DNA of 55,331 nt from Myxococcota bacterium (GTDB lineage Bacteria; Myxococcota; XYA12-FULL-58-9; JALHOP01): NCBI GenBank assembly GCA_041288095.1, contig JBGGMJ010000160.1, positions 1 to 55,331 on the forward strand, in the 5' to 3' direction. Both the position numbers and the translations under genes were made by a program. A model generated the notes under the pieces. The model searched no databases. It was not told where the DNA came from and worked only from the letters and a program-made list of their open reading frames with translations. Each line of letters begins with the position of its first letter. Position 1 is the first letter of the stretch. Shown one piece after another: positions 655 to 24,058 of the stretch.

Positions 655-984
655 TTATCCGCGAGGGCGCCGCCGTGGCGCTGCCGCGACCGTAGCGAGC
701 TGCGCGGCCAGAGCGGTAGACTTTCGCGCCTGCGCCGGCTCCTGCTTGGCTTCTCCGGTCACCTGCGGCAGCAGCCGCTCGCGCTCGGCGCGGTAGAGCT
801 GGTCTTCGACCTCTTCGATGACGCGCTTCCAGCGGAGCGAGGCGACCTTGAAGGCTTCGTGCTCGGCGACCCAACGCTCGAGCGTGCCGCGCGGAATGTC
901 GAGGGCGCCGCTTGCATCACTCGGCTGCCACCCTAACGTTTGCTGGCCTTCGAAGTCGAGGCCGAGCTCTACGCGCACCTTCAT
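655..984 (-). CDS. Hypothetical protein (109 aa, helical/coiled-coil C-terminal half)
   Basis: Protein-like composition from MKVRVELGL; TGcTAAACG lies 7 nt before ATG 984. Confidence 0.65.
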   Translation of the reverse strand: MKVRVELGLDFEGQQTLGWQPSDASGALDIPRGTLERWVAEHEAFKVASLRWKRVIEEVEDQLYRAERERLLPQVTGEAKQEPAQARKSTALAAQLATVAAAPRRRPRG

Positions 985-1083
985 GGCCCACCGTTTAGCA
1001 CGAAGGTCCGACACGCAGACGCGCAAGCACCCGTGCGCGAAGAACGTTTCGGCGGACACGCGATCAAACCCGATCAAAAGCGA

Positions 1084-4000
1084 TCAGTTGTGATCGCGCG
1101 TGAACGGATTCCACTGCTCGGCGGCACGAGCGCGACGGCGGCGCTCTTCGGCCTGGGCGGCGGCCCGCTCGCGGCGGGCGCGATCGCCTTCGCCCGGCGG
1201 CATCGGCAGCGGCGCCGGCAAGCTCGGTACGACCTCATCTGTGACCGGCCGGGGGCGTTCGGTCGCGGGGCGCGGCCGCGGCGCGTTCCAGCGTCGTCGG
1301 ATCGCATCGCTAGTGTCGCGCGCGCTGCGCAATGCGTCGTCGGGGCTCATGACGCCGTCGAAGGTGAGGGTGCCGTTGGTGAGCACCGCGTGAGCGCGCG
1401 CCGAGATCTCGCTGGGAGCGTCGGCGCTACGGACGACCGCGCTGATCGGCCGGCCGTCGCTGCGCATGCTGAAGTCGATGCTGCCGTTGAACCGACCAGC
1501 GCCGCGCACGTAGCTCGCGGCCTGTTGATCGTTCGCCGCCGGCGCCTCGCGCTCGGGCAAGCTGAACGCGCCCTCGAGGCGCCCCGCCATGCGTGCGTCC
1601 AGTCGTTGGTCGCGACCCTGCTGCGTGAAGCCCATGGAGCCCAGGAAGATCTGCAACCGCGAACGGCGCGTGACCGGTTGCTGAGGGTTGCTCCGGTCGA
1701 TCCAGGTGGGCTCGATGCGCAGATTCGCGGCCTGGGTGCCTTCGGGACCGGCGACGACCGTACCGACGACCTCGCCCTGGGTGGCGTCGGTCTCGAGGTA
1801 CCAATCGTGGAGCATCACCTGCTTGCGGTTCGGACCGATGTGCAGCGCCTCGAGCGTGCCGGTCGACATGGCGTTGCGGATCTGGACGCGCATGCGGGGC
1901 GAAGGGAAGACGAAGGTCGCGCTGTCGACCTCGACACCGACCGTGGCGCGTTGCTCGCGCGGCATGACCAAGCTGATGCCGGCCTCGGGGCTCAGGCTCA
2001 GGGTCGCCGCCGGCGCGCGCAGATCGATGCGGCGCAAGCGCGCTGAAACGCCCGACGCCGTCGGGTCGTTGGTCTCGGGTGGAATATCGAAATTGGTGGC
2101 GGTGCCGACGACGTTGCTGAGGCGCAGATCACCGGTGCGCACCTGGCCGTTCGCCTCGAGCCGCGGCGAGCCATTGGTGAGGCGGGAGCTGCGCACCCAG
2201 AGCTGTGACCCGTTGTACATCAGGTTGCCGCTGAAGTTGCCGTAGACGCCTTCGGTGGTGACGGAGCCGTCCTGCGAGACGCTGATACGCTCTGCTCCGC
2301 CATCGCGGATGGTGAACGTCTGCCGGTCGGCTTGCTGGAAGGTGAGGGCCGGGGCGCGCACGTCGGTGAGGTCCAGCACCGTCGACGTCGGGTTGCGCGG
2401 GTCTCCGGTCTGCACCAGTCGGATACGAGCACTCACGCCCGCGAGGCTCATGCTCGCGCCGTCGGCGGCACGCACCGTGGAGTCGCCGAAGGTCACCTGC
2501 GCGGTGACCTCGGTACGGCCATCGGCGCGCACGACGCGCACGTCATCGGCCGCGGCGATAGCCAATCGATTGCTGCCCATCTGGATAGTCTGGCCCGGGT
2601 TGATCTGGGCGCGCGCCCGCAGCTCGGTGCTGGCGATGATCTCTCGAACGAAGCGGCGATCCTGCTCAGGGACGCGCTCCAAGGCGCGCTCGATGATGTC
2701 GGCGCGGGTGTCGATGCGCACGTTCAAGTGGCGGGCGGCGCGGGCGGCGAGCTCTTGAACCGTCGTCGGCAGCTCGCTCGAGCCGGTCGCCATCTGCATG
2801 ACCCGGCCGGTGAGGAAGCCGTTGAGGGCGCTCTCCTGGCCGAGCCAGCCGCTCGCCACGTGGATACCGTTGAGGAAAGACGCGTCGCCGAGGGTGGCGC
2901 GGGTGACGCGCGGACGGAATGTGATCTGGTCGGGGTTCGACGCCGACGGCACCACGTCGAGGGCCGAGACCTCCATGACGCTCTCGAAGGGCGTGTTGTA
3001 CCAGCGGCCATTGCTGCTCGGGTTGAACGTAATCCGCAATGGCGGATTGAAGGTGATGCCAGAGGGTTTCGGTGTACCGTCCTCGTTGGTCTCGAGCTGT
3101 GGCGTCACGCGCCCGCCGTCGCTCTCGAGCGCCAGGCGGATGGTGCCTTGCTGGATGGTGAGCTCTTTGGCGCCGCTGTCGGCGATGAGCCCGTCGGTCA
3201 AGCGGATGGTATGCGAGCGCGGCACGTTCAGGGTGAGATCGACGTCCAGCTCGCGCAGGCCTTGAGTCACCATGGTGGCGACGTCGAGGCTGCGTGTCAC
3301 GCTGTCGAGCGAGTCGCGTGGCGACGCCGCGGCGCCGGGGACGAGCTCGGGGATGGGCAGGATCTCGAGCGACCGGCGCAACGACTCGTGGCGCGCGCGA
3401 GCGTTGGCGACGTCGGTGTACATCGGCAGACCGCTATTGCGGGCACCGTCGGTGTTGTAGAGCGTGTCGATGGTGAGGCGGTCGAAGTTGACGCTGCCCT
3501 CGGTGGTCTGGCCGTCGCGCGTCGAGAACGCACCATCGCGCGTCACGGTGAACGGCACCGCGATGTTGATGTCACCCACGCCCCGGACGTGAATGCCGGC
3601 CTCGGCGCGGTGGCCGTCGAAACCAGGCACTCCCGATGGTAGGAACGAGAAACCGGCAGGCTGCTCGCCCGAGCCCGGCCGTGGGGCCGCGACGCGCAGA
3701 TTCACGGTGCCGCGCACCTCCGGCGAAGCATCACCCGCGCGGTACGTGATGGTCGCCTGGCCGCGACCGCTGGCATTCGTCAGCGTGGCTTGCTCGGTCG
3801 TCGGCAAGCGCACCGTGGCGCTGGCGAGGGTTGCATCGAACTCGGCGCGCATGTCGATGGCGCTGGTCGCCCAGTCGAGGCTGCGCACTTGGGCCCGCAA
3901 TAGCGAACCGTTGGCGACGTCCGTACGAATGCCGATTTCGCCCAAGCTGCGATTCACGTGCGTGCCGAAGAGCCGCACATCGGCGCGCACACCGTGGCGT

Positions 4001-5637
4001 GACTCGAGCTTGAAGTTGGTCCCCGCCGTCCCGCCCATCGTGTAGGTCAGACGCCCGCTGCCGACGAGCGACGTGCCGCTCTGGACGCCGAAGCCGAAGC
4101 CCTCGCCGCTCGCGAGCTGGACGCCTCGGGGCGCCGTCAGGCCGAGATTCAGGCCTTCGGTGTCCGCTTCGACCCGCATCTGCTCCACCCGCACCGGGTG
4201 CGCCGCGTCCGTGGTGAGGTCGATGCGCGCCGCGATGCGCAAGTTGTCGCGACGGTCGCGCGGGTTGCCGAGGCTCAGCACGCCTTGGCGACCCTGCCCA
4301 TCGCGGAGGTGGAGTGAGCCGTTGACTCCGTCGAGCTGGGTATCGAAACCGACGGTAAGCTTGCCATTCGCGAGGGCGATGATGGGATTGCCGCCGTTGG
4401 TGAGGCTGACGTTGCCGAGATTGAGCTCGTTGGTCAGCTCTTCACCCGGGCGGGCGCCGGCCACCGGGGTGCGCAGGCGGACGTTCTCGATGACGCCCGT
4501 GCCGTTCTGCTGCTGGGCGTTGGCGACGGTCACCACCCAGCGACGGCGGCCGTTCTCTTCGCGCTCTTGGAGGACGACACGGAGGCTGGCGCGGCCGATC
4601 TCCAAGTTGGGGCCATTGGCGACGCCGAAGCGGGCGCCGCTGACATTGGCGTCGATCTCGTAGCGGTCGAAGCCGTTTTCGCGGACATAGGTAGCCCGCG
4701 AGCCGGGCGCGAACGCGAGCTGCAGGCCTTCGCCAAAGTTGACGAGCTGGCCGTTGCGCGACGGCGCGAGGTCTACCGTGGCGCGGACGGGCGAGCGTTG
4801 CTCGTCGATGACGCGGCGAAGCTCCGCGAGCTCACGGCTCGGCGGCCGTTGCTCGCGCGCTGGACCGATGAGTGAGATCTCCTCGCGCATGCCGAGCGAT
4901 TGGAAGAACATGTGCGGATCGACCGGTACTCGGCGCTGGCCGGAGAAGATGGCGCTCGTCTGATTGCTCATGCCGAAGACGTCGGCGAAGAAGCGGGTAA
5001 AGGCGTTACGGAGGCGCGGCACGACGCGCCGGTCGTTGGTGAGGTCGACGCCGCTGATGTCCGCCGGACCGTTGAGGTAGCTCGGGCGGCCATCGCGGTC
5101 GAGGACGTCCACACGCGCTTGGGTAAGTACGCCATCGCGGACGGAGACGGAGATCGGCAACTGCGTGCCCGGCGCCACCGTCACGGAGCTGACGCGGCCG
5201 CCGTCAGTCGACACCAGGTTCGCCTGGGCATCGGCGCTTCGCACCGAGGCGAGGATCGAGCCGGGGTTCGCGCGCACGATGGGATCGCGGGCGAGCGGCG
5301 AGAGGTCGATGGTGGGCTGAATGGGGGCGTTGAGTGGCACGGCCGATGGCCGGTCACGAGGCGCGGGCTCCGGGATCGGCGGGGCGTAGCGCACTCCGCC
5401 ATCGCGGACGGCAGGGGTCGGCGCGACGGCGGAGCGGACGCGGGGCTCGGCGCCTCGGCGGCGCGCCGCGCTGGCGTCGGTCACGGGCCGCGGAACGACT
5501 TGGTCCTGGGCGCTCGCCGGTTGATCATCGCCTGACGCGGGTTGCGGACCTTGCGAGCGGACGCCGGCGCGCGGCTCATCCTTGGGGGGCACATAAAGAC
5601 CCCGCAGGATTGGCGCCGCTGTCATGTCGTCCGACAT
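1084..5637 (-). CDS. Giant beta-strand-rich hypothetical protein A (1517 aa), Pro/Arg-rich disordered termini
   Basis: Uninterrupted 4.5-kb ORF with alternating hydrophobic beta patterns and DG/NG turns. No signal peptide or TM helix seen. Segments match the neighbouring 1403-aa ORF. Confidence 0.9.
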   Translation of the reverse strand: MSDDMTAAPILRGLYVPPKDEPRAGVRSQGPQPASGDDQPASAQDQVVPRPVTDASAARRRGAEPRVRSAVAPTPAVRDGGVRYAPPIPEPAPRDRPSAVPLNAPIQPTIDLSPLARDPIVRANPGSILASVRSADAQANLVSTDGGRVSSVTVAPGTQLPISVSVRDGVLTQARVDVLDRDGRPSYLNGPADISGVDLTNDRRVVPRLRNAFTRFFADVFGMSNQTSAIFSGQRRVPVDPHMFFQSLGMREEISLIGPAREQRPPSRELAELRRVIDEQRSPVRATVDLAPSRNGQLVNFGEGLQLAFAPGSRATYVRENGFDRYEIDANVSGARFGVANGPNLEIGRASLRVVLQEREENGRRRWVVTVANAQQQNGTGVIENVRLRTPVAGARPGEELTNELNLGNVSLTNGGNPIIALANGKLTVGFDTQLDGVNGSLHLRDGQGRQGVLSLGNPRDRRDNLRIAARIDLTTDAAHPVRVEQMRVEADTEGLNLGLTAPRGVQLASGEGFGFGVQSGTSLVGSGRLTYTMGGTAGTNFKLESRHGVRADVRLFGTHVNRSLGEIGIRTDVANGSLLRAQVRSLDWATSAIDMRAEFDATLASATVRLPTTEQATLTNASGRGQATITYRAGDASPEVRGTVNLRVAAPRPGSGEQPAGFSFLPSGVPGFDGHRAEAGIHVRGVGDINIAVPFTVTRDGAFSTRDGQTTEGSVNFDRLTIDTLYNTDGARNSGLPMYTDVANARARHESLRRSLEILPIPELVPGAAASPRDSLDSVTRSLDVATMVTQGLRELDVDLTLNVPRSHTIRLTDGLIADSGAKELTIQQGTIRLALESDGGRVTPQLETNEDGTPKPSGITFNPPLRITFNPSSNGRWYNTPFESVMEVSALDVVPSASNPDQITFRPRVTRATLGDASFLNGIHVASGWLGQESALNGFLTGRVMQMATGSSELPTTVQELAARAARHLNVRIDTRADIIERALERVPEQDRRFVREIIASTELRARAQINPGQTIQMGSNRLAIAAADDVRVVRADGRTEVTAQVTFGDSTVRAADGASMSLAGVSARIRLVQTGDPRNPTSTVLDLTDVRAPALTFQQADRQTFTIRDGGAERISVSQDGSVTTEGVYGNFSGNLMYNGSQLWVRSSRLTNGSPRLEANGQVRTGDLRLSNVVGTATNFDIPPETNDPTASGVSARLRRIDLRAPAATLSLSPEAGISLVMPREQRATVGVEVDSATFVFPSPRMRVQIRNAMSTGTLEALHIGPNRKQVMLHDWYLETDATQGEVVGTVVAGPEGTQAANLRIEPTWIDRSNPQQPVTRRSRLQIFLGSMGFTQQGRDQRLDARMAGRLEGAFSLPEREAPAANDQQAASYVRGAGRFNGSIDFSMRSDGRPISAVVRSADAPSEISARAHAVLTNGTLTFDGVMSPDDALRSARDTSDAIRRRWNAPRPRPATERPRPVTDEVVPSLPAPLPMPPGEGDRARRERAAAQAEERRRRARAAEQWNPFTRDHN

Positions 5638-5690
5638 CTGCCCCCGGTCCGCCTAACCCCGAAAAAAGAGAACACTTCGGGATTATTGAA

Positions 5691-5718
5691 GTATCGGTCA
5701 CTCGGGCGATTGGGTTGC
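5691..5718 (-). promoter_or_regulatory. Putative alternative-sigma promoter GCAAC-N17-CGATAC upstream of giant protein A
   Basis: Minus strand reads GCAAC ccaatcgcccgagtgac CGATAC; the same arrangement occurs at 25933-25959. Confidence 0.4.
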
Positions 5719-5798
5719 TGCTTTGGCCCAACGAAATTGCCACCTTGGCAGGCCGTTGGCGGCCCGCTCCTGAGCGCTCGCCCGGTACGACCGACCAG

Positions 5799-8700
5799 CT
5801 AGCGCGGGGTGCCGTTTTCGCGAATGAAATCGCGGAACTGCTGCATGCGGCGCTCTAGGTCGTGCTGGCTCATGCGGAGCGTGCCGCCGGCCACGGCCGC
5901 GATCTCCGCGTCCTCCACCTGCAGGTCGCCGGCCGCCACGGAGCGGGTGCGGTCGGCGAAGATACCGAACGAATAACGCATCCGGCCACGAATGACGACG
6001 TTGCCGTGCCCTCCCTCGTCGGCGACGCGCGCCGCCATGACCGTGTTCGGCAGGTCGATGCCGGAGAAGATCACGTGGGTCCTGTTGTCCTGCGGCGCAC
6101 GCCGGCTGTTGACCACGTGGAGGATCGGCGCGACGAACTCGCCCTGCGGGGCCTCGAAGTCGAGGCGGCTCGGACCCAACCTCACGGAGCCGCGGATCAT
6201 GCGCTCCCGTGTCGTCGGACCAGGCTCGGTGATCGAACGGAGATTGCGAATCTGTAGCTCGAGGTGCTCACGCGCCTCGTCGTTGCCGACGTAGAAGGAC
6301 AAGCGCCTGATGTCCGCGGTGGCGAGCGAGCCCTCCGGGATCTGCATTTCGACGTCCGTCGGCTTCGGCGATACGATGCGTCCGCTGTAGCGGATGCGGG
6401 CTAGGTTCGGCTCCTCGCCGTTCGCGACGACGCTTACTTGGTCGTCGCCGAAGGCGATGTCGGTGCCGCGCGCGAGGAAGGTTAGCTCCTGGATGCGCGC
6501 TTCGCCTCGACCCTGACCCGCACCGGGCGCGGGCGTGAGCTCGAGATTGCGAACCGTGAGTGGTCCGCTAACCCGGAGATTGCCGGCGAACGTCGTCGTC
6601 GTCACTCCGGGTGCGAGCACGTCTTGCCGTTCGCCTCCGGACATACGGCGAGCCATCTCCGAGAACATGGCGAGGCGGTGGTTCGGCTGCTGGACAGTCG
6701 TGAGGCGCACGTCTCCGGAAACCTCGGACGGGCCGAGTACGAAGCTCGTCGCCTGGCGCGGATGCCATGGGCCTTGTTGGCCGATGCGTAGATCGCGGGC
6801 ACGGAAGCCTTCGAAGTTGAAGTCCTGAGTGACGACGCGGTCGTCTCCGATCGTCGTGTTGACCGTGAAGCGCCGTGCCGAGCCGCTGCTCAGTTGGAAG
6901 CGGCGGTCATCGGTGGCGATGCTCGTCGGCCCGAGTGCGAGGTCACCGCCCGCGGGATTTTCGCCGACGAGGCTCACGCGGCCGCTGTTCGCCGGCTTGT
7001 CGATGGTGAGGCGCATGCCGCTCGCCAGCGTGACCAAGTTGCTGCCGAAAGGAACACGCGTGCCCGAGGGGATGGTCACCTGCGCGTCGCGGATCTCGGC
7101 GGCGTGCATGGCGCGACGGATGAGCGCCGCGACCGGGGTGTTGCCGAGGGCCATGTCGACTCGGCTCGCCGGGTTGGTGTCCGCGTCGAGCTGCATGCCG
7201 GACATGCTGACGATGTTGGCGAGGACCTGGGGCACGACGTTGGCGCGCGCCGGCCCGCTGGGGACCGCCGGCCCAAGCAACGGAGCAAGCTGACTTTGGA
7301 CCGTCGGCCAGATGTCGATGTTGAGCGGCGACCAGCTGTTGTTTACGACCGGCCGCTCGCGGCTTTGGCCACTTGCGTCGGTGAAGCGCTCGAACGGCTC
7401 GGCGCGCAAGCGGCCGTCGGTGCCGGGCACGAAGCGAATGCCGTGAAAGGTGGTCGAGCCACTCATGGCGCCCATGAAGGCGCTGCTGTTGACGGTGATG
7501 GGGTTCGAGAAGCTCAGCTCGACGCCGTGCGCCGGCTCATCTCCTCGGCGCAGCGTCGTGACGTTCAGCGTGGTGTTCGCCGGAATGACGAGTCGCGCTC
7601 CGCCGACTCTCTGACCTGCCGGCGTGATATCCAGATCCTGGGCGTCGGGCCCGAGCGGCACGCGCACGTCGAAGCGCGCGTCCTGGGCGCTACCGATGAC
7701 CTGGCCGAGATTGATTTGGCGCAGCGTTTCGTCGAGCGAGCGGGGCGTCGCGTTGAGGTCGACGCCGGCCCCGCGCAGAGCGGTATCGAGCCGAGCGTTG
7801 CGCTCCGCGAGCTCGCGCGCCTGGTCGGGATTTTCGGCTGCCCGCTCCGCCGCCTCACGCAGGATCTGCGGCTGATTGCGCAGGCCGCGGTCGACGCCGG
7901 CGATCGGTGTGAGGTCGCCAGAGTCCTCGTGTGAGGCCGAGAACACGACGCCGCGCGAGCACATCGCGGCCCAACGGCCCTGCGTCACCGCGTCGAGGCT
8001 GCCGTTCGGGGCAAGCGCGGCGCGACACCCGGCGAGCATCGCGGTGTAGTCCTGCACGTTCTCGTACAGCGGTGGCGCTTCGGGAGTGCTCAGCGTCCCG
8101 TCTTGCTTGAGCGCGCCACGCACCGGAATCGACACGACCGTCTGCGGGCGACCGCTCGCGGGCAAGCGCGGATCGCGACGAATGGCGACGTTGAGCGCGC
8201 CGGGATTGTTCTCGTCCGATGTCAGCGGCATGCCGAGCGTGCCCTCGGCGATGGCGCCACGAACATGGCCGTCGACCGTCGTCTCCGTCCCAGTGCGGTT
8301 GAACGTGAGATTCACGTCGAGGTTCGGGTGGCGCGCCTCGAACGAGTAACCTTGGCGCGGCTGACCGGTGCGCGGATCGATCGGCGTCACCTGACGCATC
8401 GAGAGATGCGCATCGTCGGGCCGGCCGGGACGCGGTGTGCCGGTCGCGGTCGCGCGCAAGGTGTAGCTGAAGTCCCCGTCGGACGCGAAGGCGCGGACCT
8501 GCAGCGTGCCGCCGGCGTTGACGTGCATGTTCGCGACGGCGCTGCCGACGAGCTGATTGACGCCGTGCACTTGCGCGTTCGTGGTCAAGGTCAATGGATC
8601 GTCGCCGGTCGAAGCCAAAGCCCAGCGGCCCACGCGGGGCGTTCCGTCATTGCGGATAGCGCCTTCGTAGGTGATGCGGCCACTGCCCGACAGACGGGTG

Positions 8701-10010
8701 CCGTCACGCAAGGTCGCGTGCAAGCCGTCACGCACCTGCATGGTGAAGCCGTCACCAGTCGCGAGTCGCAGGTCGAGGCCGTTGGTGTCGGCTTCGAAGC
8801 GCACGCGTGTGCGGTCGCCTCGCTCGCGCGGCTCGCCATCCCGGAACGGCCGCACGTCGAGGTTGATGTTGCGCACGCCGGCGTTGGCATCGGAATCGGA
8901 GACGCGTAGGCGAGCGCGCTCACCAGCGCCGTTCACGACGCTCAGGTCGGTCGAAAGGCCGGTGACCTGAGCGTTCGCCAAGCTCGCGCGCGCCAAGCGG
9001 CCGTTGTTGATCTCGATGCTCGAGCCACGCGGCAGCACGAGGCGGCGCGCCCCGACGGTGTCGACCTGGCCGCGGCCGACGGGCACCGCGATGCGGGCGT
9101 TCTGTACGTCCATCTCGCGCACCGTCATCGTGACCTGGCCATTGGCGGCGCGCGTGCCTTCAATCTGGATGCGGCCGCGGCCCATGCGCACACCGTCTTG
9201 CGGAGCCCCGAGCACCGCGGACGCGACGTCGGCCGACAGGGTGAAGCGCGCCGAGCCACGCTCGCCCGGCGTGACCGTGAGGCTCGGCGGCCGCGCGCCG
9301 GGCGCCGGCTGCAGCTGGATGCCGGGCCCGAGGAAGTTGCTGATGTTGACGGTGGCGTTGACGGTGCCGTTGCCGGTCTGGGCGCCGCGGATGTCGTAGT
9401 CACCGATGAGCGACGACACCCAGCCGAGGTTCGCCGAGACCGGGCGGTTGTTGACGAGCCGCACGCCTTCGATGGGCACGAGCCCGCCGGCGGCCGAAAG
9501 TCCGCTAATGCGGACGGTGCCGGTGATGCCGGTGCGCGAGTCGATGCCGACCGTGCCCCCGAGGCGGGCGGGCTGGTTGCCGGCGAGGCTGACGCGGGGG
9601 TCGGGTGAGGAGCGCAACACGCCAGAGACGTCGGCGGTACCACGCAGGTGAGGCATGAGGTTCGCGCCGGCTATGGGCAGGCGGGCGTCGAAGCGCGCGG
9701 CTTGGGGTCGTGCCGCCGCCGGATCGGGGGTGGTCGCGCGCCGCACCGGCGGCGTTGGTCCACTTTGGCGGACAGGGCGACCCGGTCCCGTGGCGCGCTC
9801 GGTCGTTGCGCGGCGCGCGGTAGGTTGCGCTCGCGGATCGACGCGCAGGTCGCGGTTGCGCTCGCGCTCCGCCTGCCGTGCTCGTTCGCGGCTTCGGTCG
9901 GCGTTCGATCGCCGCGCCGGACGGGCCACGGGCGCCGGCTCGGTGAACGAGCGGAAGAACCTCGCGATCGGGTCCGAGTCGTCTCCGCGGGTTGGGCGTC
10001 TCGTCGACAT
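5799..10010 (-). CDS. Giant beta-strand-rich hypothetical protein B (1403 aa), paralogue of protein A
   Basis: Uninterrupted 4.2-kb ORF with an Arg/Pro-rich N-terminus. RFEADTNGLDL...GTRLSGSGRITY matches RVEADTEGLNL...GTSLVGSGRLTY in protein A. Confidence 0.9.
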   Translation of the reverse strand: MSTRRPTRGDDSDPIARFFRSFTEPAPVARPARRSNADRSRERARQAERERNRDLRVDPRAQPTARRATTERATGPGRPVRQSGPTPPVRRATTPDPAAARPQAARFDARLPIAGANLMPHLRGTADVSGVLRSSPDPRVSLAGNQPARLGGTVGIDSRTGITGTVRISGLSAAGGLVPIEGVRLVNNRPVSANLGWVSSLIGDYDIRGAQTGNGTVNATVNISNFLGPGIQLQPAPGARPPSLTVTPGERGSARFTLSADVASAVLGAPQDGVRMGRGRIQIEGTRAANGQVTMTVREMDVQNARIAVPVGRGQVDTVGARRLVLPRGSSIEINNGRLARASLANAQVTGLSTDLSVVNGAGERARLRVSDSDANAGVRNINLDVRPFRDGEPRERGDRTRVRFEADTNGLDLRLATGDGFTMQVRDGLHATLRDGTRLSGSGRITYEGAIRNDGTPRVGRWALASTGDDPLTLTTNAQVHGVNQLVGSAVANMHVNAGGTLQVRAFASDGDFSYTLRATATGTPRPGRPDDAHLSMRQVTPIDPRTGQPRQGYSFEARHPNLDVNLTFNRTGTETTVDGHVRGAIAEGTLGMPLTSDENNPGALNVAIRRDPRLPASGRPQTVVSIPVRGALKQDGTLSTPEAPPLYENVQDYTAMLAGCRAALAPNGSLDAVTQGRWAAMCSRGVVFSASHEDSGDLTPIAGVDRGLRNQPQILREAAERAAENPDQARELAERNARLDTALRGAGVDLNATPRSLDETLRQINLGQVIGSAQDARFDVRVPLGPDAQDLDITPAGQRVGGARLVIPANTTLNVTTLRRGDEPAHGVELSFSNPITVNSSAFMGAMSGSTTFHGIRFVPGTDGRLRAEPFERFTDASGQSRERPVVNNSWSPLNIDIWPTVQSQLAPLLGPAVPSGPARANVVPQVLANIVSMSGMQLDADTNPASRVDMALGNTPVAALIRRAMHAAEIRDAQVTIPSGTRVPFGSNLVTLASGMRLTIDKPANSGRVSLVGENPAGGDLALGPTSIATDDRRFQLSSGSARRFTVNTTIGDDRVVTQDFNFEGFRARDLRIGQQGPWHPRQATSFVLGPSEVSGDVRLTTVQQPNHRLAMFSEMARRMSGGERQDVLAPGVTTTTFAGNLRVSGPLTVRNLELTPAPGAGQGRGEARIQELTFLARGTDIAFGDDQVSVVANGEEPNLARIRYSGRIVSPKPTDVEMQIPEGSLATADIRRLSFYVGNDEAREHLELQIRNLRSITEPGPTTRERMIRGSVRLGPSRLDFEAPQGEFVAPILHVVNSRRAPQDNRTHVIFSGIDLPNTVMAARVADEGGHGNVVIRGRMRYSFGIFADRTRSVAAGDLQVEDAEIAAVAGGTLRMSQHDLERRMQQFRDFIRENGTPR

Positions 10011-10120: not shown

Positions 10121-11779
10121 CTAGCGTACGACGATCTTCAAGTGACCGATATCGTTGGGAGAAACGCCCATTTGTTCGATCTGGCCAACGAGCTCGCCCA
10201 CCGTCGCGCGGCGGGCCAGGCGCAGCTGCTTTCCGGAGCCGGTGGTTTGGGGGAGGGGGATCCACCCCGAGCCCAGGACCCGGGCATCGAAGAGACCGAG
10301 GTAGCCGTCGAGAAACTGCATGTCGACGCCTTGGCAGCCGCACGTCGCGATGAGGCTGGGAATGGCCCGGCGAGCGGTGCCGAGTGAGACGCCGGCGGCG
10401 AACGATTCGGCCGAGGCGCGGTAACCGGCGTAGCACGTACGACCGAGCTCCTCGCGGAAGATCTGTGGCACGAGGCCGACACGCAGGCTCGGCGCCGCGC
10501 CCTCGAGGTCCGCTGCTTCCTGACGCAAGCGGGGATGGCTCACCGTGCCCGGCAGCTTGATGGTGCGCGCCCCGACCAAGAGCCGTCCCTCGAGGCGCAC
10601 CTCGAGCATCTGGGTCATCTCCCGCAGGGTCGCCGCGATGTCGAGGAGTTGGCGCGCCTGCACCGACTGGTCGGCGTCGATGTACACGATCACCTGCTCG
10701 GCCTGCGGCATGGCTTGCGCGAGCGCCTGGCCCAGTTGATCGCGGTCGAGCGCGGCACCGCGGGTGCCGTTGCTGTCGACGACGTAGGTACCTTCGGGGC
10801 CGACGACGACGCGAGGTCCGCTCTCCTGACCGTATTGGACGAGCTCACCGGCGACCTGCGGCACACTCGTGTCGGCGGCGCTGTAGAGGGGGGTCATCGT
10901 TTGAATGCGGTTCGTCAAAGCGGACACATGATCACTGCAGCCGAAAAGACCTTCGCCGCCGCCAATCTGGCCGAGGTCAGGAGGGGCTTCGCCTGCTTCC
11001 GGCTGGGCGATGACCACGAGTGACTCACTGCGCCGCGACACGACCGGCTTGGCCTCGGCGGCCGCGGATCGGGCATCGGAGCTGTCGTCGAGATATTCGA
11101 TCGTCGAGCCCACGCGGGTCTCACCAATCAGCAGATCGCGCATCGACGCCTGGGCCTTTCCGCTAACGCGGACCTGAGCCTTGACGTTGCGGGTGTCCTC
11201 GATCTTGATGTCGGCGTTCTGCTCGCCGCTGACGCCGACGACGTTGAACGGGCCCTTGGGCGTGCGCTGTGTGCCTTCGCTGCGGAACGTCGCGATCACC
11301 GGCGTGCCTTCGCTCGTCGACAAGCTCGCCTGTCGCGGGCGGTCGTTGCGGATGGTGCGCAAGTCGAGTGGGCTCACCGGACCGGTGGCCTGCAGCGCCG
11401 AGAGGGTGCGGGTGACGAGCCCCGTCAGGCGATCGTCGAGGCCGTCCACCGCGAACTGCTGGAGGCGGCCGGTGGCTTCGAAGCTCGCGGTCACCGACTT
11501 GCCGATGAGGGATTCGGCGTTCTGGGTGGCGCCGTCGTCGAGGATGCGCGCGTCCGTGAACGTCAGCAGCGCGTCGAAGCTGCCGTCCGGGTTGACCTGG
11601 CGAACCTCGAGGTCGAAGACCAAGCGGTCATCGTCGATGCCGCGTCCCGTCTGCGTTGCCGTGGCCGCGGTGCCACGATAGTGGTCGCCCGCGGCAGGCT
11701 TGTGCAGCGATGGCGCACAGGCAAATGATGAAGCGGCGAACAAGAACGAGGAAAGAGCAGTCCTAGAGCGCGTGCGCAT
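10121..11779 (-). CDS. Putative lipoprotein (552 aa) with an ExbD/TolR-like motif in the C-terminal half
   Basis: Basic N-region, hydrophobic stretch and lipobox SFA-C; VYIDADQSVQARQLLDI resembles the ExbD periplasmic signature. Confidence 0.75.
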   Translation of the reverse strand: MRTRSRTALSSFLFAASSFACAPSLHKPAAGDHYRGTAATATQTGRGIDDDRLVFDLEVRQVNPDGSFDALLTFTDARILDDGATQNAESLIGKSVTASFEATGRLQQFAVDGLDDRLTGLVTRTLSALQATGPVSPLDLRTIRNDRPRQASLSTSEGTPVIATFRSEGTQRTPKGPFNVVGVSGEQNADIKIEDTRNVKAQVRVSGKAQASMRDLLIGETRVGSTIEYLDDSSDARSAAAEAKPVVSRRSESLVVIAQPEAGEAPPDLGQIGGGEGLFGCSDHVSALTNRIQTMTPLYSAADTSVPQVAGELVQYGQESGPRVVVGPEGTYVVDSNGTRGAALDRDQLGQALAQAMPQAEQVIVYIDADQSVQARQLLDIAATLREMTQMLEVRLEGRLLVGARTIKLPGTVSHPRLRQEAADLEGAAPSLRVGLVPQIFREELGRTCYAGYRASAESFAAGVSLGTARRAIPSLIATCGCQGVDMQFLDGYLGLFDARVLGSGWIPLPQTTGSGKQLRLARRATVGELVGQIEQMGVSPNDIGHLKIVVR

Positions 11780-11821
11780 ATGACCTTTACGCCTTCCATC
11801 GCGAGTCTCGCTAAAGACGGC

Positions 11822-12964
11822 GTGCCGATCAAACTTTCCCGACGTCTACCCACGGACATGACGCCGTCGGAGTTGACGCGCGCGGTCGAAGCGCTCGCAC
11901 CCCCGTACGACCTCACCGAGACCAACCCGACTCGCGTCGAGCTGGTTTATCCCGAAGGCGACTTGGCCTGGGCTTTGGGAGGCGCCACGGCGCTTGCCTC
12001 GTACGAACCGGACGCGATGGGCATGCGCTCGGCCCGTGACTTCTTGAGCGGTGTCGCTGGTGTTCCTGTCGACCACCTACTGGTGACCGCCAGCACCAGC
12101 GAGGCGTACGCTATAGCGATCAAGGCGTTCGTCGACCCGGGCGGGCTCGTGGCGGTGCCGCGGCCGAGCTACCCGCTGATCCCCCACCTCGCGCAGCTCG
12201 AGGGCGCCGAAACCGTTTGGTACGACCTCATCGCCGAGGAGCGCTTCCGTATCGATCTCGCGAGTCTCCAGCGCGCGCTCGTTGCGGGCGCCAAGGTGGT
12301 GGTGATCGTCAGCCCCAACAATCCCACGGGCTCGGTGGCGAGCGACGACGAGATCGCCGAAGCGGCGTTCCTGTGCGCCGAGCGTGGGGCGGTCCTCGTC
12401 ATCGACCGTGTCTTCGCGGCCTATGCGCTCGAAGGCGTCGTTCCGGAGCTTCCGAAGAATTTGCCTGGTCTCGTCATCGCCCTCGACGGCCTGTCGAAGC
12501 GCGCCGCCATGCCGCAGCTCAAGCTCGCCTGGATGGCCTTGCACGGCGATGCGGCGGACAGCGTCGCGTCGGCGCTCGCTTGGGTGAACGACGCCTATCT
12601 CTCGGCGGCAACGCCGGTGCAACGCGCGCTGCCCGCGATCTGGCCCCACGGCGAGGCAATGGCAGCTCAAATCGGCTCGCGGTTGCGCACCAACCTCGCG
12701 ACCTTGCGGGCAGGAGCGCTGTCCGTCAAAGCGGTGGGCGTCCTGCCGGTCGCCGCCGGCTGGAGTGTCGTGGTTCGCGTGCCGCGGGTCGTCGATGACG
12801 ACGGCTGGACGCTCGCATGCGCGCGCGCCGGTGTGAAAGTCGCGCCTGGCTACCTGTACGACTTCGACCGGCCGGGCTTCCTCGTGTTGAGCCTGCTGCC
12901 CAAGCCCCAAAGCTTCGCCGCGGGTGTTCGTCGCTTCATCACCGTGGCGCAGGAGCTGGTGTAG
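11822..12964 (+). CDS. PLP-dependent aminotransferase class I/II
   Basis: VVIVSPNNPTG, LVIDRVF, LDGLSK (PLP lysine). Start placed at GTG 11822; ATG 11780 is the alternative. Confidence 0.9.
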   Translation: MPIKLSRRLPTDMTPSELTRAVEALAPPYDLTETNPTRVELVYPEGDLAWALGGATALASYEPDAMGMRSARDFLSGVAGVPVDHLLVTASTSEAYAIAIKAFVDPGGLVAVPRPSYPLIPHLAQLEGAETVWYDLIAEERFRIDLASLQRALVAGAKVVVIVSPNNPTGSVASDDEIAEAAFLCAERGAVLVIDRVFAAYALEGVVPELPKNLPGLVIALDGLSKRAAMPQLKLAWMALHGDAADSVASALAWVNDAYLSAATPVQRALPAIWPHGEAMAAQIGSRLRTNLATLRAGALSVKAVGVLPVAAGWSVVVRVPRVVDDDGWTLACARAGVKVAPGYLYDFDRPGFLVLSLLPKPQSFAAGVRRFITVAQELV

Positions 12965-13003
12965 GCGCTTTGCCGGTGGCGGGGCTCACCGAGCTACCCG
13001 CGC

Positions 13004-13028
13004 TGTCACGTTTGCGCACCAAGTGACA
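13004..13028. promoter_or_regulatory. Inverted repeat TGTCAC-N13-GTGACA, candidate enhancer-binding-protein site
   Basis: Perfect 6-bp arms about 50 bp upstream of the sigma54 element. Confidence 0.45.
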
Positions 13029-13079
13029 TCTTTTGCGTGTGGGTGTGCCTCAAACCTGCCCGCAATGGCGGTCAAGCGA

Positions 13080-13095
13080 TGGCACGCGCGTTGCT
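13080..13095 (+). promoter_or_regulatory. sigma54 (RpoN) -24/-12 promoter
   Basis: TGGCACgcgcgTTGCT matches TGGCAC-N5-TTGC(A/T) with exact GG/GC spacing; GGAGGG RBS and ATG 13135 follow. Confidence 0.85.
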
Positions 13096-13134
13096 CATGT
13101 GGTTGGCAAGGCGCATCGCGCGGAGGGTTAACCG

Positions 13135-13509
13135 ATGGTCACCACGTCCACCCACAGTGCAGCAAGCGACGACCGTTCGTGTCTGGTTGGCCAGCTCGAA
13201 GCCTGGCCGCTCGAAGAGATCTTGCTGTGGCTGTACCAGTCGGAACGCTCGGCGGTGTTGCGCGTCGGCACCGGCCGCGAGCACGCGATGTTGCTGGTAC
13301 GCGGTGGCCAGCTCTCGCGCGTCGAATGGGGAGCGCGCATGGGTGAAGACGCTCTGATCGCCCTGTTCTCGATGCCCGCGGGCGCTTTCAACTTGATGCT
13401 GCGCGAACCGCCCGATGTCCGCGCGAACGTGCTGCGCCCGACCCCCGAGCTCCTGCTGCAATGCACCTTCGCCTACGAGGACAGCGACCGCCCGATGTAC
13501 CAGGCCTGA
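13135..13509 (+). CDS. Stand-alone DUF4388 (PatA-N-like) domain protein
   Basis: LVGQLEAWPLEEILLWL...RSAVLRV...GEDALIALF...GAFNL...ELLL follows the DUF4388 pattern. Confidence 0.75.
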   Translation: MVTTSTHSAASDDRSCLVGQLEAWPLEEILLWLYQSERSAVLRVGTGREHAMLLVRGGQLSRVEWGARMGEDALIALFSMPAGAFNLMLREPPDVRANVLRPTPELLLQCTFAYEDSDRPMYQA

Positions 13510-13604
13510 CGCGCACACATCGACCCGCATTGGATCCCTGACGCGAATTGGCAGCGCTGCCGCACTTGGTCAGCATGGCGCATGAGTCGGCTACACTCTG
13601 GGCG

Positions 13605-15332
13605 GTGACCCGCCTCTGCGTTCTTGCTGTCGTGGCAAGCTGCGCTGCTTGTGCCAAGCAGACGGTTGGTCTCATCGACCGCGCTTGTGACGTCGGTCAG
13701 TGTGCCGCGGGCTTCGCCTGCCTGGACGGCATCTGCCGTCCCTTCGTCGAGACCTCGAGCGCTGGGGCGCGGTGCGGCGAGGCCCTGGGTGTAGCCCCGT
13801 GCGTCGCCGGTGCCGGCGATTGCACGCAAGGCTGCCGTCAGTGCGTCGCCGGCGCCTGGAGCGAATGCCTCTACGATTGTCTGCTGACGGACGGTGCCTT
13901 CATTCGCGTCGAGTCGTGCAACACCCGCGACGACGATTGCGACGGCGCCGTCGACGAGGCTACCGATGCGCCGCAGGGCTGCTCCGACCGCTTCCTCGAC
14001 CAGGATGGTGACGGCCACGGCGCGGGGGAGGCGCGCTGCGCCTGTGCGATCGACAGCGACGGCTATGTCGCCGTCAGCTCCGATGACTGCAATGACGCAA
14101 ACGCCGCCATCTTCCCGGGCGCGGCCGACGCCTGTTTCGCCTGCGAGACCATCGTCGCGTGGAACCTCGACAACGACGGCGACGGCGTCGACGAGTGCGG
14201 TGGCGATTGCAACGACGCGAGCGCGAGTGTCGGCCCCGCGGTGCTCGAGGACATCACCAGCGGCAACTGCCGCGACGGCTTTGACAACGATTGCAGCGCG
14301 CAGAGCGATTGCGCCGACACGAATTGCACGGTGCCGCCGGCGCTCTTCCGCTACGGCCGTGTCGTCACCGTGACTCCGAATCCGACGCTGGCGGCGGGGT
14401 TCGGCATCGCCATCACCTTCGACCATGCGGCCTTGGTCGCCTCCGGCCGTGCGGCGCTCTTCGGCGGTGATGTTCGTGTTTTTGTGCGCGATAGCGGAGG
14501 GTTTCACGAGGTGCCGCGTGAGGTCGACGTGCTGAGCAGCTGGAATCGCGCCAATACGCGCTTGTGGGTGCGCAACGAGCATGCGCGCAGCGCCACGGAG
14601 ACCGACCTGCTCCTCGTCTACGGCGCCGGCCCCAACGTCACGACCTCGGCGATGACCGACACCGACGTCTACGCGCTTCGCGACGACTTCGACCGGCCGG
14701 ATTCAGCGCTCGGCACGCCGTGGGTCATTCCCAGCTCCTTCGGCATTCCCATGAGCGGCGGTGCCATTCGCTTGCCGGGCACCAGTAACGCCAACGCGAA
14801 CCCCGTCGCCGACCGTGTCTTCCCGGCCATCGAGAGTGGCCGCGTCGAGCTGACCGTGGCGATGAACAACAACGTGAGCGGCGAGACGGACTACGGCACC
14901 TTCGTGCACCTCGGGCGCAGCTTGCCCAACATCTTGGCCAGCACGGTCGTGAGCTCCGTGGCTTCGGCGGTGGTGCTCGGGTTCGGTAACTTCCCCGACA
15001 GCGATGCCGGCCCGGCCTTCGGCCCAAACCACTACTTCGGCGTGGCGGGTGGGACCTACTACGACTTCGGCGCGAGGACGGGAGCGCACGTCTTGCGGGC
15101 CATCGCCGACCTCGGCAGCCGTACGGTGAGCACGACTCTCGACGGTGTTGCGGTCACCGGCCCCGCGTTCGGCGATGCCGCCGTGACCGGAGTGGACACC
15201 TTGCGCCTCTCGGGGTGGCAGCTGTTGAACAGCGGCGGCATTACTTACGACTATGTGGCCGTGCGGGCGCTCCCCCCGGTCGAGGCCACGGTGGCCGTCG
15301 GGCCGGAGCTGGCCATAGGCCCGTGTCCTTGA
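13605..15332 (+). CDS. Cys-rich lipoprotein with MopE-like putative metal-binding repeats and a DUF2341-like/beta-sandwich C-terminus
   Basis: Lipoprotein-like signal ending CAA-C; repeats CNTRDDDCDGAVDE, DQDGDGHG, DCNDANAAIFPGA, CRDGFDNDC; then FDHAALVASG...DVRV...LWV. Start uncertain (13575 or 13605). Confidence 0.8.
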   Translation: MTRLCVLAVVASCAACAKQTVGLIDRACDVGQCAAGFACLDGICRPFVETSSAGARCGEALGVAPCVAGAGDCTQGCRQCVAGAWSECLYDCLLTDGAFIRVESCNTRDDDCDGAVDEATDAPQGCSDRFLDQDGDGHGAGEARCACAIDSDGYVAVSSDDCNDANAAIFPGAADACFACETIVAWNLDNDGDGVDECGGDCNDASASVGPAVLEDITSGNCRDGFDNDCSAQSDCADTNCTVPPALFRYGRVVTVTPNPTLAAGFGIAITFDHAALVASGRAALFGGDVRVFVRDSGGFHEVPREVDVLSSWNRANTRLWVRNEHARSATETDLLLVYGAGPNVTTSAMTDTDVYALRDDFDRPDSALGTPWVIPSSFGIPMSGGAIRLPGTSNANANPVADRVFPAIESGRVELTVAMNNNVSGETDYGTFVHLGRSLPNILASTVVSSVASAVVLGFGNFPDSDAGPAFGPNHYFGVAGGTYYDFGARTGAHVLRAIADLGSRTVSTTLDGVAVTGPAFGDAAVTGVDTLRLSGWQLLNSGGITYDYVAVRALPPVEATVAVGPELAIGPCP

Positions 15333-15456
15333 CGATCGCGGTCGCTTGAGCCTTTCTGACGCCGCGATCGCGGGGTTTTGGGAAAACGATCGGACCCCCC
15401 ACGTATTGGGTATGCGCCGACGAGTCCCTAACGCCTCGTCGTCGATTGGCAGGGCC

Positions 15457-18400
15457 ATGCGCATCAAGAGACTCGAGATCCACGGCTTCAAATCGTTCGC
15501 CGAGCGAGCCGTGCTCAACTTCGGGGAAGGCATCACCGGCGTCGTCGGCCCCAACGGCTGCGGCAAATCGAACATCGTCGATGCTCTTCGCTGGTGCATG
15601 GGCGAGATGAGCGCCAAGCACTTGCGTGGCCGGGCCATGCAAGACGTCATCTTCGCGGGCTCGGACAGCCGCGGACCGCTCGGCATGGCCGAGGTTACGA
15701 TCAGCTTCCACAACGACGGCAACGTACCGCCGCAATACGCCAGCTTCAGCGAGATCGCCGTGACGCGCCGCCTGCATCGCGACGGCAGCAGCGAATACCT
15801 GGTGAACAAGGTGCCGGCGCGGCTGCGCGACATCACCGATCTCTTCCTCGGTACCGGTGTCGGCACGCGCGCCTATTCGATCATCGAGCAAGGCCGCATC
15901 GGCTTCATCGTCAGCAGCAAGCCCGAAGATCGCCGCTCCCTCATCGAAGAGGTCGCCGGCATCACCAAGTTCAAGGCGCGCAAGAAGGCCGCCGAGCGGC
16001 GTATGGAGTCGACGCAGCAGAACTTGGATCGCGTCGGCGATGTCGTGAGCGAGCTCGAACGCCAGCTCCAATCGCTGCGCCGGCAGGCGCGCCGCGCCGA
16101 GAAGTACAAGGAGCTACGGACCGAGTTGCGCGATCTCGAGCTCCATCAAGCATCGCTCGAGATGTTGCGCGTCTCCGCGCTCGAAAAGCACGCCCACGGC
16201 GAAGCCGGGTTGCTGGCTCGTGACGCCGAAGACGCGCAGGCGGGTATCGCGGCGCGCGAGAGCAGCATCGAAGCCGATCGTCTGCGCTTGCTCGAGGTCG
16301 AGCGGGAGCTGCAGCGCGAGCATGCAGCGAGCGCCGAGCTCGACGCCAAGCTTGCTGCCTTGGAGCGCGACTTGTCGCACTGGCAGCGGCAGCGCGACGA
16401 AGCCATCGCTCGGGTGCATGCGGCGCGGCGCGATGTCGAGGACGCCGAGACGCGCCTGGCGGCGGCACGCAACGAGCACGAGAGTCACGATCACGCGCTC
16501 GGGCATCTGTCCGCTTCGGTGGACAGTGACCGCGAGCGCACCTACGCGCTCGAGACCGCGGTCGGCGAAATGCAGGCCCAGATCGCCGGACTCGATCGCG
16601 ACGCGGAGGCGCTGCGGCGCTCGGCGGTCGAGCACATCCACGAGGGGGCCCGCCAGCGCACGTTGATTGCCGCCATCGCCAAGCGCGACGTCGAGCTCAA
16701 GAATCGCTTGAGTCAGTCGAGCGCCGAGCTCGAAGACGTGGCGCGCCGGAGGGCGTTTGCGGAGGCGAAAGCCAGTGAGCTGACCGAGCGGCGCGACGTG
16801 TTGGCCGGCCAGATCAGCGAGTGGCGTGGGCGCGTCGCCGAGAACCGCGCTACCCTCGAGACCGCCATTCGGCAGGTCGGCGAGAGCGAGACGCGTTTGC
16901 GGTCGCTCCGCGATACGTTGGCCGAGCGGCGGTCGCGCTTGGAATCCCTGCAGGAGATCGCGCGGCGCTTCGAGGGCTACTCGGACGGCGTGCGCTCTCT
17001 CATGCGGCCCGACGGCGGCGAGCCGGCCGTTGCCGGTATCCGCGCCCTCATCACCGACGTTCTCGAGGTGCCCCCGGAGCTCGAGCGCGCGGTGGAAGCG
17101 GCGCTCGGCGAGCGTCTGCAGTACGTCGTCGTCGACGCACAGTCGGTCGGTGTGACTGCTATCGCGCACCTGCAACAGGTCGCCGGCGGCCGCAGCGGCT
17201 TCGTACCGATGACACCGCGTACCTCGGCGGTGACGGCGCGGGGCAATGCCCTCGATCGCGTCAAGGCGCGGCCCGGCTTCGAGAAGGTCGCCGAGTATCT
17301 TCTCGCCGACGTCAGCATCGCCGACTCGCTCGACGCGGCGTTGATGGCGTTCAGCGCCGATCAGAGCCCGCTGCGTTACGTCACCTCGACGGGCGAGGTG
17401 CTCGACGCCTTCGGCACTCTCATCGGTGGCTCGGAAGAGGGCACCGGTCTGCTCGCCAAGCGCCGCGAGATTCGTGAGCTCGAGGAGATCGTGGCGTCGC
17501 TCGACGCCGAGCACGAGACGGCTCGGGCCGACCACTTGCGGCTCGAGACCTCGCGCTTGCAGCTCGAAGTCGACATCCAGCAGCTCGAGAAAGACCTGCA
17601 CGCCGCGGACCTCGAGCGCATCGAGACCTCGAAAGATCTCGAGGCGGCGATGGCGGACGCCCAGCGTGCCGGCGACCGCGCCGAGATTGTCGAGTTCGAG
17701 CGCTCGCAAGCGAGCGACGAGCTGGCCAAGAGCGCCAGCGAGACCAGAACCGCGGAAGAAGCGGCCGGTCGAGCCGAGGAAGAGCAACGCAGCATCGAGC
17801 AGCGCGCCCGCGATCTCGCCGAGCGACGAGCCGCCATGGCCGAGGAGCTAGCGGCCCGGGCCGACGAGCTCACCCGCGCCAAGGTCGAAGGCGCGACGCG
17901 CGCCGAAAAGCTCACCGGCACCAAAGCCGCGGCGCAGCGCCTGCAGCAGACCATTCACGAGCTCACGCAGCGCATCGAGCGCGGCCAGGGCGCCATTCGC
18001 CACAACGAGACGGCGGGCCAGGAGCTCACGCAGCGCATCGACGAGGGCCAGCAGGTCGCATTGACGACCTCGGCGGAGGCATTGCGCCGGCGCGAAGAGC
18101 TCTCGGCGGCCCGCGATCGCTACGAAGCTGATCGCCAGAGCGTCGCGGTGGTCGAGCAAGCGCTACGCGAGCAACGCAAGAGCGGTGACGCGACGACCGA
18201 GCGGCTGACGGCCGTTCGCCTCGAGCTGCAGCGCTTGGAGCTCGAGCGCGTGCGCATCGGCGATCACATTCTCGAGCGCCACGATGTGCGCATCGAGCAC
18301 GTCATGACCGACTATCACCTGCGCCCGATGCCGGGACCCGAGGCGCGCCAGAAAGCGACCGAGCTCGACCGGGCCATCAAGGCGTTGGGCCCGATCAACC

Positions 18401-22058: not shown

Positions 22059-22146
22059 GGCTTGGCTCCGTGAGCGACATACGGCCACGGCTCGCCAGTG
22101 GTTCGGCACGCGGCATGTCACGCCGACGGGACACGCTGTCGGTGCG

Positions 22147-24021: not shown

Positions 24022-24058
24022 GTCCGCGTTTATCGTGCGGCGCCGGGCGGAGGTGTCG

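What the first reader, a model, noticed from the sequence alone, without database searches (positions are those of the whole stretch)
1084..10010. Tandem pair of giant, signal-less, beta-rich paralogues: candidate undescribed system
Seen: 1517-aa and 1403-aa ORFs on the same strand share ordered segments: RVEADTEGLNL/RFEADTNGLDL (approx. 4145-4177 vs 8769-8801), GTSLVGSGRLTY/GTRLSGSGRITY, DGAFST/DGTLST, PMYTDV/PLYENV, SLDSVTRSLDV/SLDETLRQINL, ITFNPPLRI/LSFSNPITV, QINPGQTIQMGSNRLAIA/TIPSGTRVPFGSNLVTLA. Both begin with about 100 disordered Pro/Arg-rich residues and have no Sec/Tat signal or TM helix. I recognise no catalytic motif. Known: over 1000 aa of continuous amphipathic beta-meander is the architecture of repeating-beta-groove lipid bridges (AsmA/TamB/YhdP, VPS13), but bacterial members normally carry an N-terminal TM anchor. 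Inference: these may be soluble or non-classically secreted beta-groove proteins, for example lipid-bridging effectors of a predatory myxobacterium.
Basis: partly seen in the sequence, partly recalled or inferred. Interest (0 to 1): 0.75.

Follow-up and report, generated by a model that had tools for sequence, protein, structure and literature searches.

The report
Anchorless beta-groove proteins of myxobacteria
Two neighbouring giant genes belong to an unnamed protein family of myxobacteria-like bacteria whose predicted shape resembles the greasy grooves that carry lipids between membranes, yet they lack the usual membrane anchor, so they may be a new kind of exported lipid carrier.

Summary
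Both ORFs are real genes and distant, collinear paralogues. They are not one 1000-residue meander: each is a tandem duplication of a ~650-aa unit (alpha/beta cap plus ~440-aa beta-meander; unit 1 vs 2 E 2e-20) with a ~100-residue internal repeat. Stepping-stone searches extend the family to 14 of 22 genomes of the order and at most 30 of 301 in the phylum (Myxococcota by record titles). No Pfam, NCBIfam, PDB or Atlas name. The tandem pair is not a fixed system: one close relative has only A. AlphaFold gives open, strongly one-sided beta-sheets; the best fold matches (LptD/LptC lipid grooves, MORN; Z 7-9) are only middling, and sequence links to AsmA/TamB are weak but above controls. No member has a transmembrane helix; 5 carry LysM or peptidoglycan-binding domains and one has the cap fused to phospholipase D. 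Best reading: an anchorless lipid-binding beta-groove protein, exported without a signal peptide, perhaps through the genome's type III gate (0.4). The groove itself, lipid binding and export are not shown.

The parts
1084..5637 (-). Gene A, 1517 aa, two-unit beta-meander protein
5308..5637 (-). A residues 1-110: Pro/Arg-rich, poorly conserved, probably disordered leader with a short hydrophobic patch near the start
4789..5298 (-). A unit 1 alpha/beta cap (res 114-283), includes amphipathic helix 211-221
3460..4788 (-). A unit 1 amphipathic beta-meander (res 284-726)
3358..3420 (-). A helix closing unit 1 (res 740-760)
2626..3330 (-). A unit 2 alpha/beta cap (res 770-1004)
1351..2625 (-). A unit 2 amphipathic beta-meander (res 1005-1429)
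1087..1350 (-). A C-terminal helix and Pro/Arg-rich tail (res 1430-1517)
1080..1097 (-). Terminator-like hairpin with T run overlapping the stop codon of A (consensus match only; 3 such sites found against 5.7 expected)
5799..10010 (-). Gene B, 1403 aa, fast-evolving paralogue of A with the same two units
9696..10010 (-). B residues 1-105: Pro/Arg-rich leader with an amphipathic helix at 15-25 (moment 0.76)
7791..9683 (-). B unit 1 (about res 110-740)
5871..7760 (-). B unit 2 (about res 751-1380)
5802..5870 (-). B C-terminal amphipathic helix (moment 0.60)

Best explanation
A and B are members of an unnamed Myxococcota family of anchorless beta-groove proteins. Each ~650-aa unit is an alpha/beta cap followed by about 20-27 antiparallel strands that form an open, curved sheet with one hydrophobic face (shown in models and sequence). 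That face is inferred to be the concave lining of a groove that holds lipid acyl chains, with amphipathic helices at the ends touching membranes. Two units in tandem would give a rod of roughly 20-25 nm (inferred, about 0.48 nm per strand, recalled value). Lacking a signal peptide, the protein is inferred to leave the cytoplasm by its disordered N-terminal leader, most likely through the type III export gate, and to work at peptidoglycan-bounded membranes (own envelope or a prey contact), taking up or passing lipids. B is a later, fast-evolving and dispensable copy.
For: Models: mean pLDDT 66.8 and 74.9, long meanders. One-sided strands: hydrophobic face 64% and 59% apolar, other face 26% and 30% (faces chosen per strand, which inflates the contrast). 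A and B rank 3 and 5 of 490 long ORFs for beta-periodic hydrophobicity, interleaved with the genome's own TamB/AsmA proteins at 1, 2, 4. Fold matches with low rmsd include the LptD lipid-groove domain (Z 8.8, rmsd 3.8, 165 aligned), LptC (Z 7.1, 3.8, 134; Z 6.4, 3.1, 137) and TamB 5vtg (Z 5.6, 4.8, 124 of 131); whole porins fit only at rmsd about 20 or more. Internal repeat of about 100 columns, E 6e-9. Unit HMM scores 11 of 33 AsmA/TamB/DUF748-type proteins at 10 bits or more, 0 of 60 other beta-rich proteins, 3 of 33 reversed ones. DUF748 matches P0022 at E 1.7e-4. Conserved columns are almost all Gly, Pro or apolar, no catalytic pattern. Of 16 distant members scanned, 2 carry LysM, 3 PG_binding_1, 1 has the cap fused to a PLD domain. 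Genome holds SctV, SctR, S, T, Q, L-like genes and CpaB, no flagellin found at 90% completeness.
Against: Model coordinates could not be inspected, so the groove was not seen. All fold Z-scores lie in the range the tool calls background (7-9); MORN repeats tie or lead for unit 2 (Z 9.1; 8.4). No VPS13, ATG2 or BLTP chain is in any top-50 list. Profile-profile match to TamB-like proteins is short (63 columns, probability 47%) and absent for DUF748; the cap shows no likeness to the AsmA N-terminus. DUF748 hits are far below the Pfam cut-off and seen in only 2 members. The second cap sits mid-chain and may break a continuous groove. A and B themselves have no PG-binding domain. SctV passes the cut-off in 175 of 301 genomes, so co-occurrence is uninformative, and the family was not found in several large genera that have SctV (0 of 11, 0 of 10, 0 of 8, 0 of 10).
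Confidence: 0.4

Rival explanations
1. A structural beta scaffold or adhesin-like rod: MORN/OspA-like twisted sheets whose apolar faces pack on each other (unit 1 on unit 2, or oligomers), tethered to peptidoglycan or a prey surface, with no lipid cargo.
For: MORN proteins are the top matches for unit 2 (Z 9.1 and 8.4, rmsd 4-5.5 over 184-197 residues); OspA also listed. Exact two-unit duplication suits a pseudo-dimer. Fast evolution: A 55% and B 29% identical to G003 orthologues while neighbours are 77-87%.
Against: Strands are 10-20 residues and strongly one-sided; AsmA-type proteins, not other beta-rich proteins, score on the unit HMM; single-unit members and a cap-PLD fusion exist.
Confidence: 0.25
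2. A cytoplasmic lipid carrier or bridge that serves the inner face of the membrane, lipid bodies or internal membranes and is never exported.
For: No signal or TM segment in 37 family sequences (maximum hydropathy 1.75); almost no Cys; conserved position near smc, an aminotransferase, dsbA and coaD in three families, like a housekeeping gene.
Against: LysM and PG_binding_1 domains on 5 homologues make little sense in the cytoplasm; patchy distribution, 11 of 151 genomes in one family; fast divergence and copy gain or loss.
Confidence: 0.15
3. A membrane-inserting, pore-forming or lytic predation effector: each meander curls with its apolar face outward into a barrel or arc in a prey membrane.
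For: Many outer-membrane barrels appear among fold matches, some partial fits at rmsd 5-7; signal-less with PG-binding homologues; the M. xanthus T3SS* is needed for prey lysis and its effectors are discussed only as hypothetical in the passages read (PMC12075869).
Against: Whole barrels fit at rmsd about 20-25; Trp+Tyr only 1.1% of family residues, so no aromatic girdle; chains end in helices; no match to any toxin sequence or fold.
Confidence: 0.1

Closest known systems
AsmA-like / repeating beta-groove lipid bridges (TamB, YhdP, YdbH/DUF748, AsmA; VPS13, ATG2)
   Same: Very long, one-sided beta-meander with a ~100-residue repeat, low aromatic content, amphipathic helices at the ends, same rank in beta-periodicity; weak HMM cross-scores.
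   Different: No N-terminal TM anchor; disordered leader instead; own alpha/beta cap with no detectable Chorein_N/AsmA-N likeness; whole-unit duplication with a cap in mid-chain; LysM, PG-binding or PLD fusions; genome already has four ordinary AsmA-type genes.
Lpt beta-jellyroll groove (LptC, LptA, LptD N-domain)
   Same: Best low-rmsd matches to parts of both units (Z 6.4-8.8, rmsd 3.1-3.8, 134-165 residues).
   Different: Covers only about a third of a meander; no sequence similarity; no lpt genes nearby; no signal or anchor.
MORN-repeat and OspA/CPAP single-layer beta-sheets
   Same: Long twisted antiparallel meander, Z up to 9.1.
   Different: No MORN motif found by Pfam; strands about twice as long (recalled comparison); fits use only part of each hairpin.
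Myxococcus Kil (Tad) and needleless T3SS* predation system
   Same: Genome encodes type III export-gate genes and CpaB.
   Different: A and B are unlinked to these clusters; no paper found naming such a substrate; family not found in several large SctV-bearing genera.

Membership tests
AsmA-like / RBG | N-terminal transmembrane helix anchoring to the inner membrane (PMC10345924) | tested here: not met
   Maximum 19-residue hydropathy 0.97 and 1.25; at most 1.75 in 37 family sequences against 2.96 for an AsmA-type control
AsmA-like / RBG | N-terminal Chorein_N-like domain | tested here: inconclusive
   Cap profile vs home-made DUF748 and TamB-like profiles: no match (E 0.1-0.2); profiles are shallow and the cap was not folded and searched alone
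AsmA-like / RBG | Match to a clan CL0401 Pfam family over its cut-off | tested here: not met
   A and B: none. Sub-threshold DUF748 in P0022 (E 1.7e-4) and P0017 (E 0.063)
AsmA-like / RBG | Repeats of about five antiparallel strands forming a long open meander | tested here: met
   AlphaFold meanders; self-alignment offset 96-99 columns, E 6e-9; about five strands per 100 residues by my count
AsmA-like / RBG | U-shaped section with hydrophobic concave lining | tested here: inconclusive
   One-sided strands and LptD/LptC/TamB partial fits; coordinates not available to see which face is concave
AsmA-like / RBG | Fold match to a solved RBG protein above background | tested here: inconclusive
   TamB 5vtg Z 5.6, rmsd 4.8, 124 aligned; none other listed
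AsmA-like / RBG | Binds and transfers glycerophospholipids | not testable with these tools
   Needs lipidomics and a liposome assay as in PMC13542527
Outer-membrane beta-barrel | Sec signal, aromatic girdle, closed barrel, C-terminal beta-signal | tested here: not met
   No signal by hydropathy; Trp+Tyr 1.1%; C-terminal helices; full barrels fit at rmsd about 20-25
MORN repeat proteins | MORN sequence motif | tested here: not met
   No Pfam MORN match in A, B or homologues
Type III (T3SS*) substrate | Cognate export apparatus in the genome | tested here: met
   SctV 850.6 bits, SctR, SctS and SctQ over cut-off, SctT and SctL below
Type III (T3SS*) substrate | Export that depends on the N-terminal leader and the apparatus | not testable with these tools
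   Needs reporter fusion or secretome data

The most novel reading that the evidence does not exclude
The family is a secreted, anchorless lipid bridge: exported through the needleless type III gate, held on peptidoglycan (LysM/PG-binding in homologues), spanning about one periplasm and draining lipids from a prey or neighbouring cell membrane into the predator, with paralogues such as B diversifying for different prey.
Probability: 0.18. Interest if true: 0.9.

Novelty: new variant of a known kind. Interest (0 to 1): 0.62.

Why it matters
All bacterial bridge-like lipid carriers described in the review read (PMC10345924) are anchored in the inner membrane. A soluble, duplicated, capped version with peptidoglycan-binding or phospholipase partners would be a new architecture, easier to purify than TamB or YhdP (anchorless constructs of those could not be isolated, PMC13542527), and a concrete candidate cargo for the myxobacterial needleless type III system, whose effectors are open. 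Even if it carries no lipid, it is a large unnamed family and probably an unsolved fold.

Tried and rejected
Pfam and NCBIfam on A, B, halves and homologues: nothing for A or B beyond E 0.2. PDB sequence search with three profiles: nothing under E 0.07. ESM Atlas blank for A and P0017. Foldseek: PDB best E 2e-4 to Rhs proteins at TM 0.06 and rmsd 29, rejected; none under 0.001 for unit 2 in PDB or viral library (a viral Chorein-N protein is rank 32 at E 0.07, not significant). No VPS13, ATG2 or BLTP in the VIA top-50 lists. Word-based searches found only close kin. The unit HMM with filters did not find the genome's own TamB/AsmA genes or any third paralogue. Four weak hits were inspected and dropped as non-members: a TPR protein, an anchored AsmA-type protein, a lipoprotein-like ORF and a DnaK-like ORF (the last two named from recall). 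Viral contig scan could not run. No RNA holder was listed. Earlier findings: none listed. The complex predictor was not available, so packing of unit 1 on unit 2 is untested. Type III co-occurrence is uninformative. No conserved functional neighbours outside the order: flanking genes differ at each locus. No sigma-70-type promoter match. One search timed out. Five paper searches listed no paper on such a family; subscription papers and supplements were not seen, and proteomics supplements could hold members.
Full report
Observation. The two ORFs exist as stated and are real genes: substitutions against G002 fall mostly on third codon positions. They are distant paralogues, collinear over their length. 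Neither has a hydrophobic segment. They have no match in Pfam, NCBIfam, PDB sequences or the ESM Atlas.

The pair is not a fixed system. A is in 4 of 4 genomes of the genus, B in 3 of 4; in G001 (97% complete) A follows the upstream 551-aa gene directly, with no remnant of B. Against G003, A is 55% and B 29% identical while neighbours are 77-87%. In a quick tree of 66 units B forms its own long-branched lineage, and A has closer relatives (P0013, P0014) than B; deep branching is poorly supported.

The family. A profile search of 1.84 billion representatives gave only 10 proteins. A weak hit in G008 served as stepping stone to 1280-1630-aa homologues across the order. A profile of the unit's first 300 positions matched 34 of 301 phylum genomes, scoring at most 7 candidates per genome. 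I fetched 20 of the distant places; 16 hold members and 4 do not, so the count is at most 30 of 301, with 14 of 22 in the order. In one large family 11 of 151 genomes matched under a strict filter. Record titles say Myxococcota for 2 of 3 close relatives; the named members are 'hypothetical protein'. In three families of the order the gene lies near smc, with an aminotransferase and/or dsbA and coaD close by; outside the order neighbours vary.

Anatomy. The protein is a tandem duplication: unit 1 versus unit 2 aligns over 549 columns at E 2.4e-20. AlphaFold half-models of A (13 and 14 sequences; pLDDT 66.8 and 74.9) show for each unit an alpha/beta cap, then 21-27 strands of up to 20 residues, then a helix; cap 1 is partly under pLDDT 50. 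B was not folded. The meander has a ~100-column internal repeat. Single-unit members exist, as does a protein with the cap fused to a phospholipase D domain; 2 members carry LysM and 3 PG_binding_1, all without a hydrophobic segment. Conserved positions are Gly, Pro and apolar, with two Asp near 55%: no sign of an enzyme.

Is it a lipid groove? For: strands are one-sided; A and B rank 3 and 5 of 490 long ORFs in beta-periodic hydrophobicity, between the genome's own TamB and AsmA proteins; low-rmsd fold matches include the LptD groove domain, LptC and TamB, while whole barrels fit badly, which points to an open elongated sheet; the unit HMM scores AsmA-type proteins above 60 other beta-rich proteins and above their own reversals; amphipathic helices sit at chain ends, as described for eukaryotic RBG proteins (PMC7613979, passages). 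Against: every Z-score is in the background range and MORN repeats tie or lead for unit 2; profile-profile support is short or absent; reversed AsmA sequences also score up to 18.8 bits, so part of the signal is periodicity; the defining TM anchor of bacterial AsmA proteins (PMC10345924, parts 1-2 of 5 read) is missing; and I could not view coordinates. It plausibly works like an RBG protein; it should not be filed as one.

Where it acts. Peptidoglycan-binding domains on signal-less homologues imply export by a non-Sec route (inference). The genome encodes SctV, SctR, S, T, Q, L-like genes and CpaB, with no flagellin found, resembling the needleless T3SS* and Kil pilus of M. xanthus, whose effectors are treated as hypothetical in the passages read (PMC12075869). 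But SctV is common in the phylum (175 of 301), A and B are unlinked to it, and several SctV-bearing genera lack a detectable member. A and B have only 0.4% and 0.2% Lys (median 2.6% among long ORFs), shared with a set of other long orphan ORFs with disordered starts; its meaning is unknown.

Verdict. A real, unnamed, patchily distributed Myxococcota family with a clear duplicated architecture. Best reading: anchorless, exported lipid-binding beta-groove (0.4); rivals: structural scaffold (0.25), cytoplasmic lipid carrier (0.15), pore-former (0.1). Shown: genes, paralogy, duplication, distribution, amphipathic open meander in models, accessory domains. Inferred: groove geometry, lipid cargo, export, role in predation. 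The liposome assay of PMC13542527 (passages) would test it directly. Paper searches (listings and abstract starts only) showed no description of the family.

Noticed in passing
G000:C175:5834-9445 (L161:5834-9445 +): A third long, Lys-poor (0.2%), signal-less beta-rich orphan, 1204-aa frame, rank 6 of 490 for beta-periodicity, ending in Phe like a barrel signal; no Pfam match, not hit by the unit HMM.
   Followed up: partly
G000 genome-wide: 42 of 1210 long ORFs have Lys at most 0.6% and Arg at least 8%; many start with disordered leaders and lack hydrophobic segments (some are shadow frames). Of 7 others scanned, 6 had no Pfam match and one matched DUF6861. Possibly a class of non-classically exported proteins.
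   Followed up: partly
G000:C92:2888-19133 (L170): Type III export cluster (SctT, S, R, Q, FliJ-like, SctL-like) with two long signal-less orphan ORFs embedded (11343-13700, 14770-16788); SctV lies on another contig, C31.
   Followed up: partly
   Followed up: partly
L113:4172-9709 (G150:C3): A single-unit member lies convergently about 130 bases from a true AsmA-family gene (E 4.8e-21); one case only.
   Followed up: no
window 10121-11779 (-): Upstream 552-aa lipoprotein-like gene on the same strand, conserved in all four genus genomes (77-90%), faint ExbD match (E 5e-4).
   Followed up: no
window 20631-24132 (-): Two genes (one amidohydrolase-like) interrupt the NADH dehydrogenase cluster after nuoC here but not in G001 or G002.
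   Followed up: no
window 655-1077 (-): Small conserved gene directly after A (71% in G001), no confident family.
   Followed up: no
L041:2274-5177 (-) (G008:C100): 967-aa signal-less orphan next to the G008 homologue, with a W-x-G-x-C-like motif recalled from transglutaminase elicitors; no Pfam match.
   Followed up: no
window A end and B-family starts: The motif WNPF closes A and opens two B orthologues (P0009, P0010); meaning unknown.
   Followed up: no
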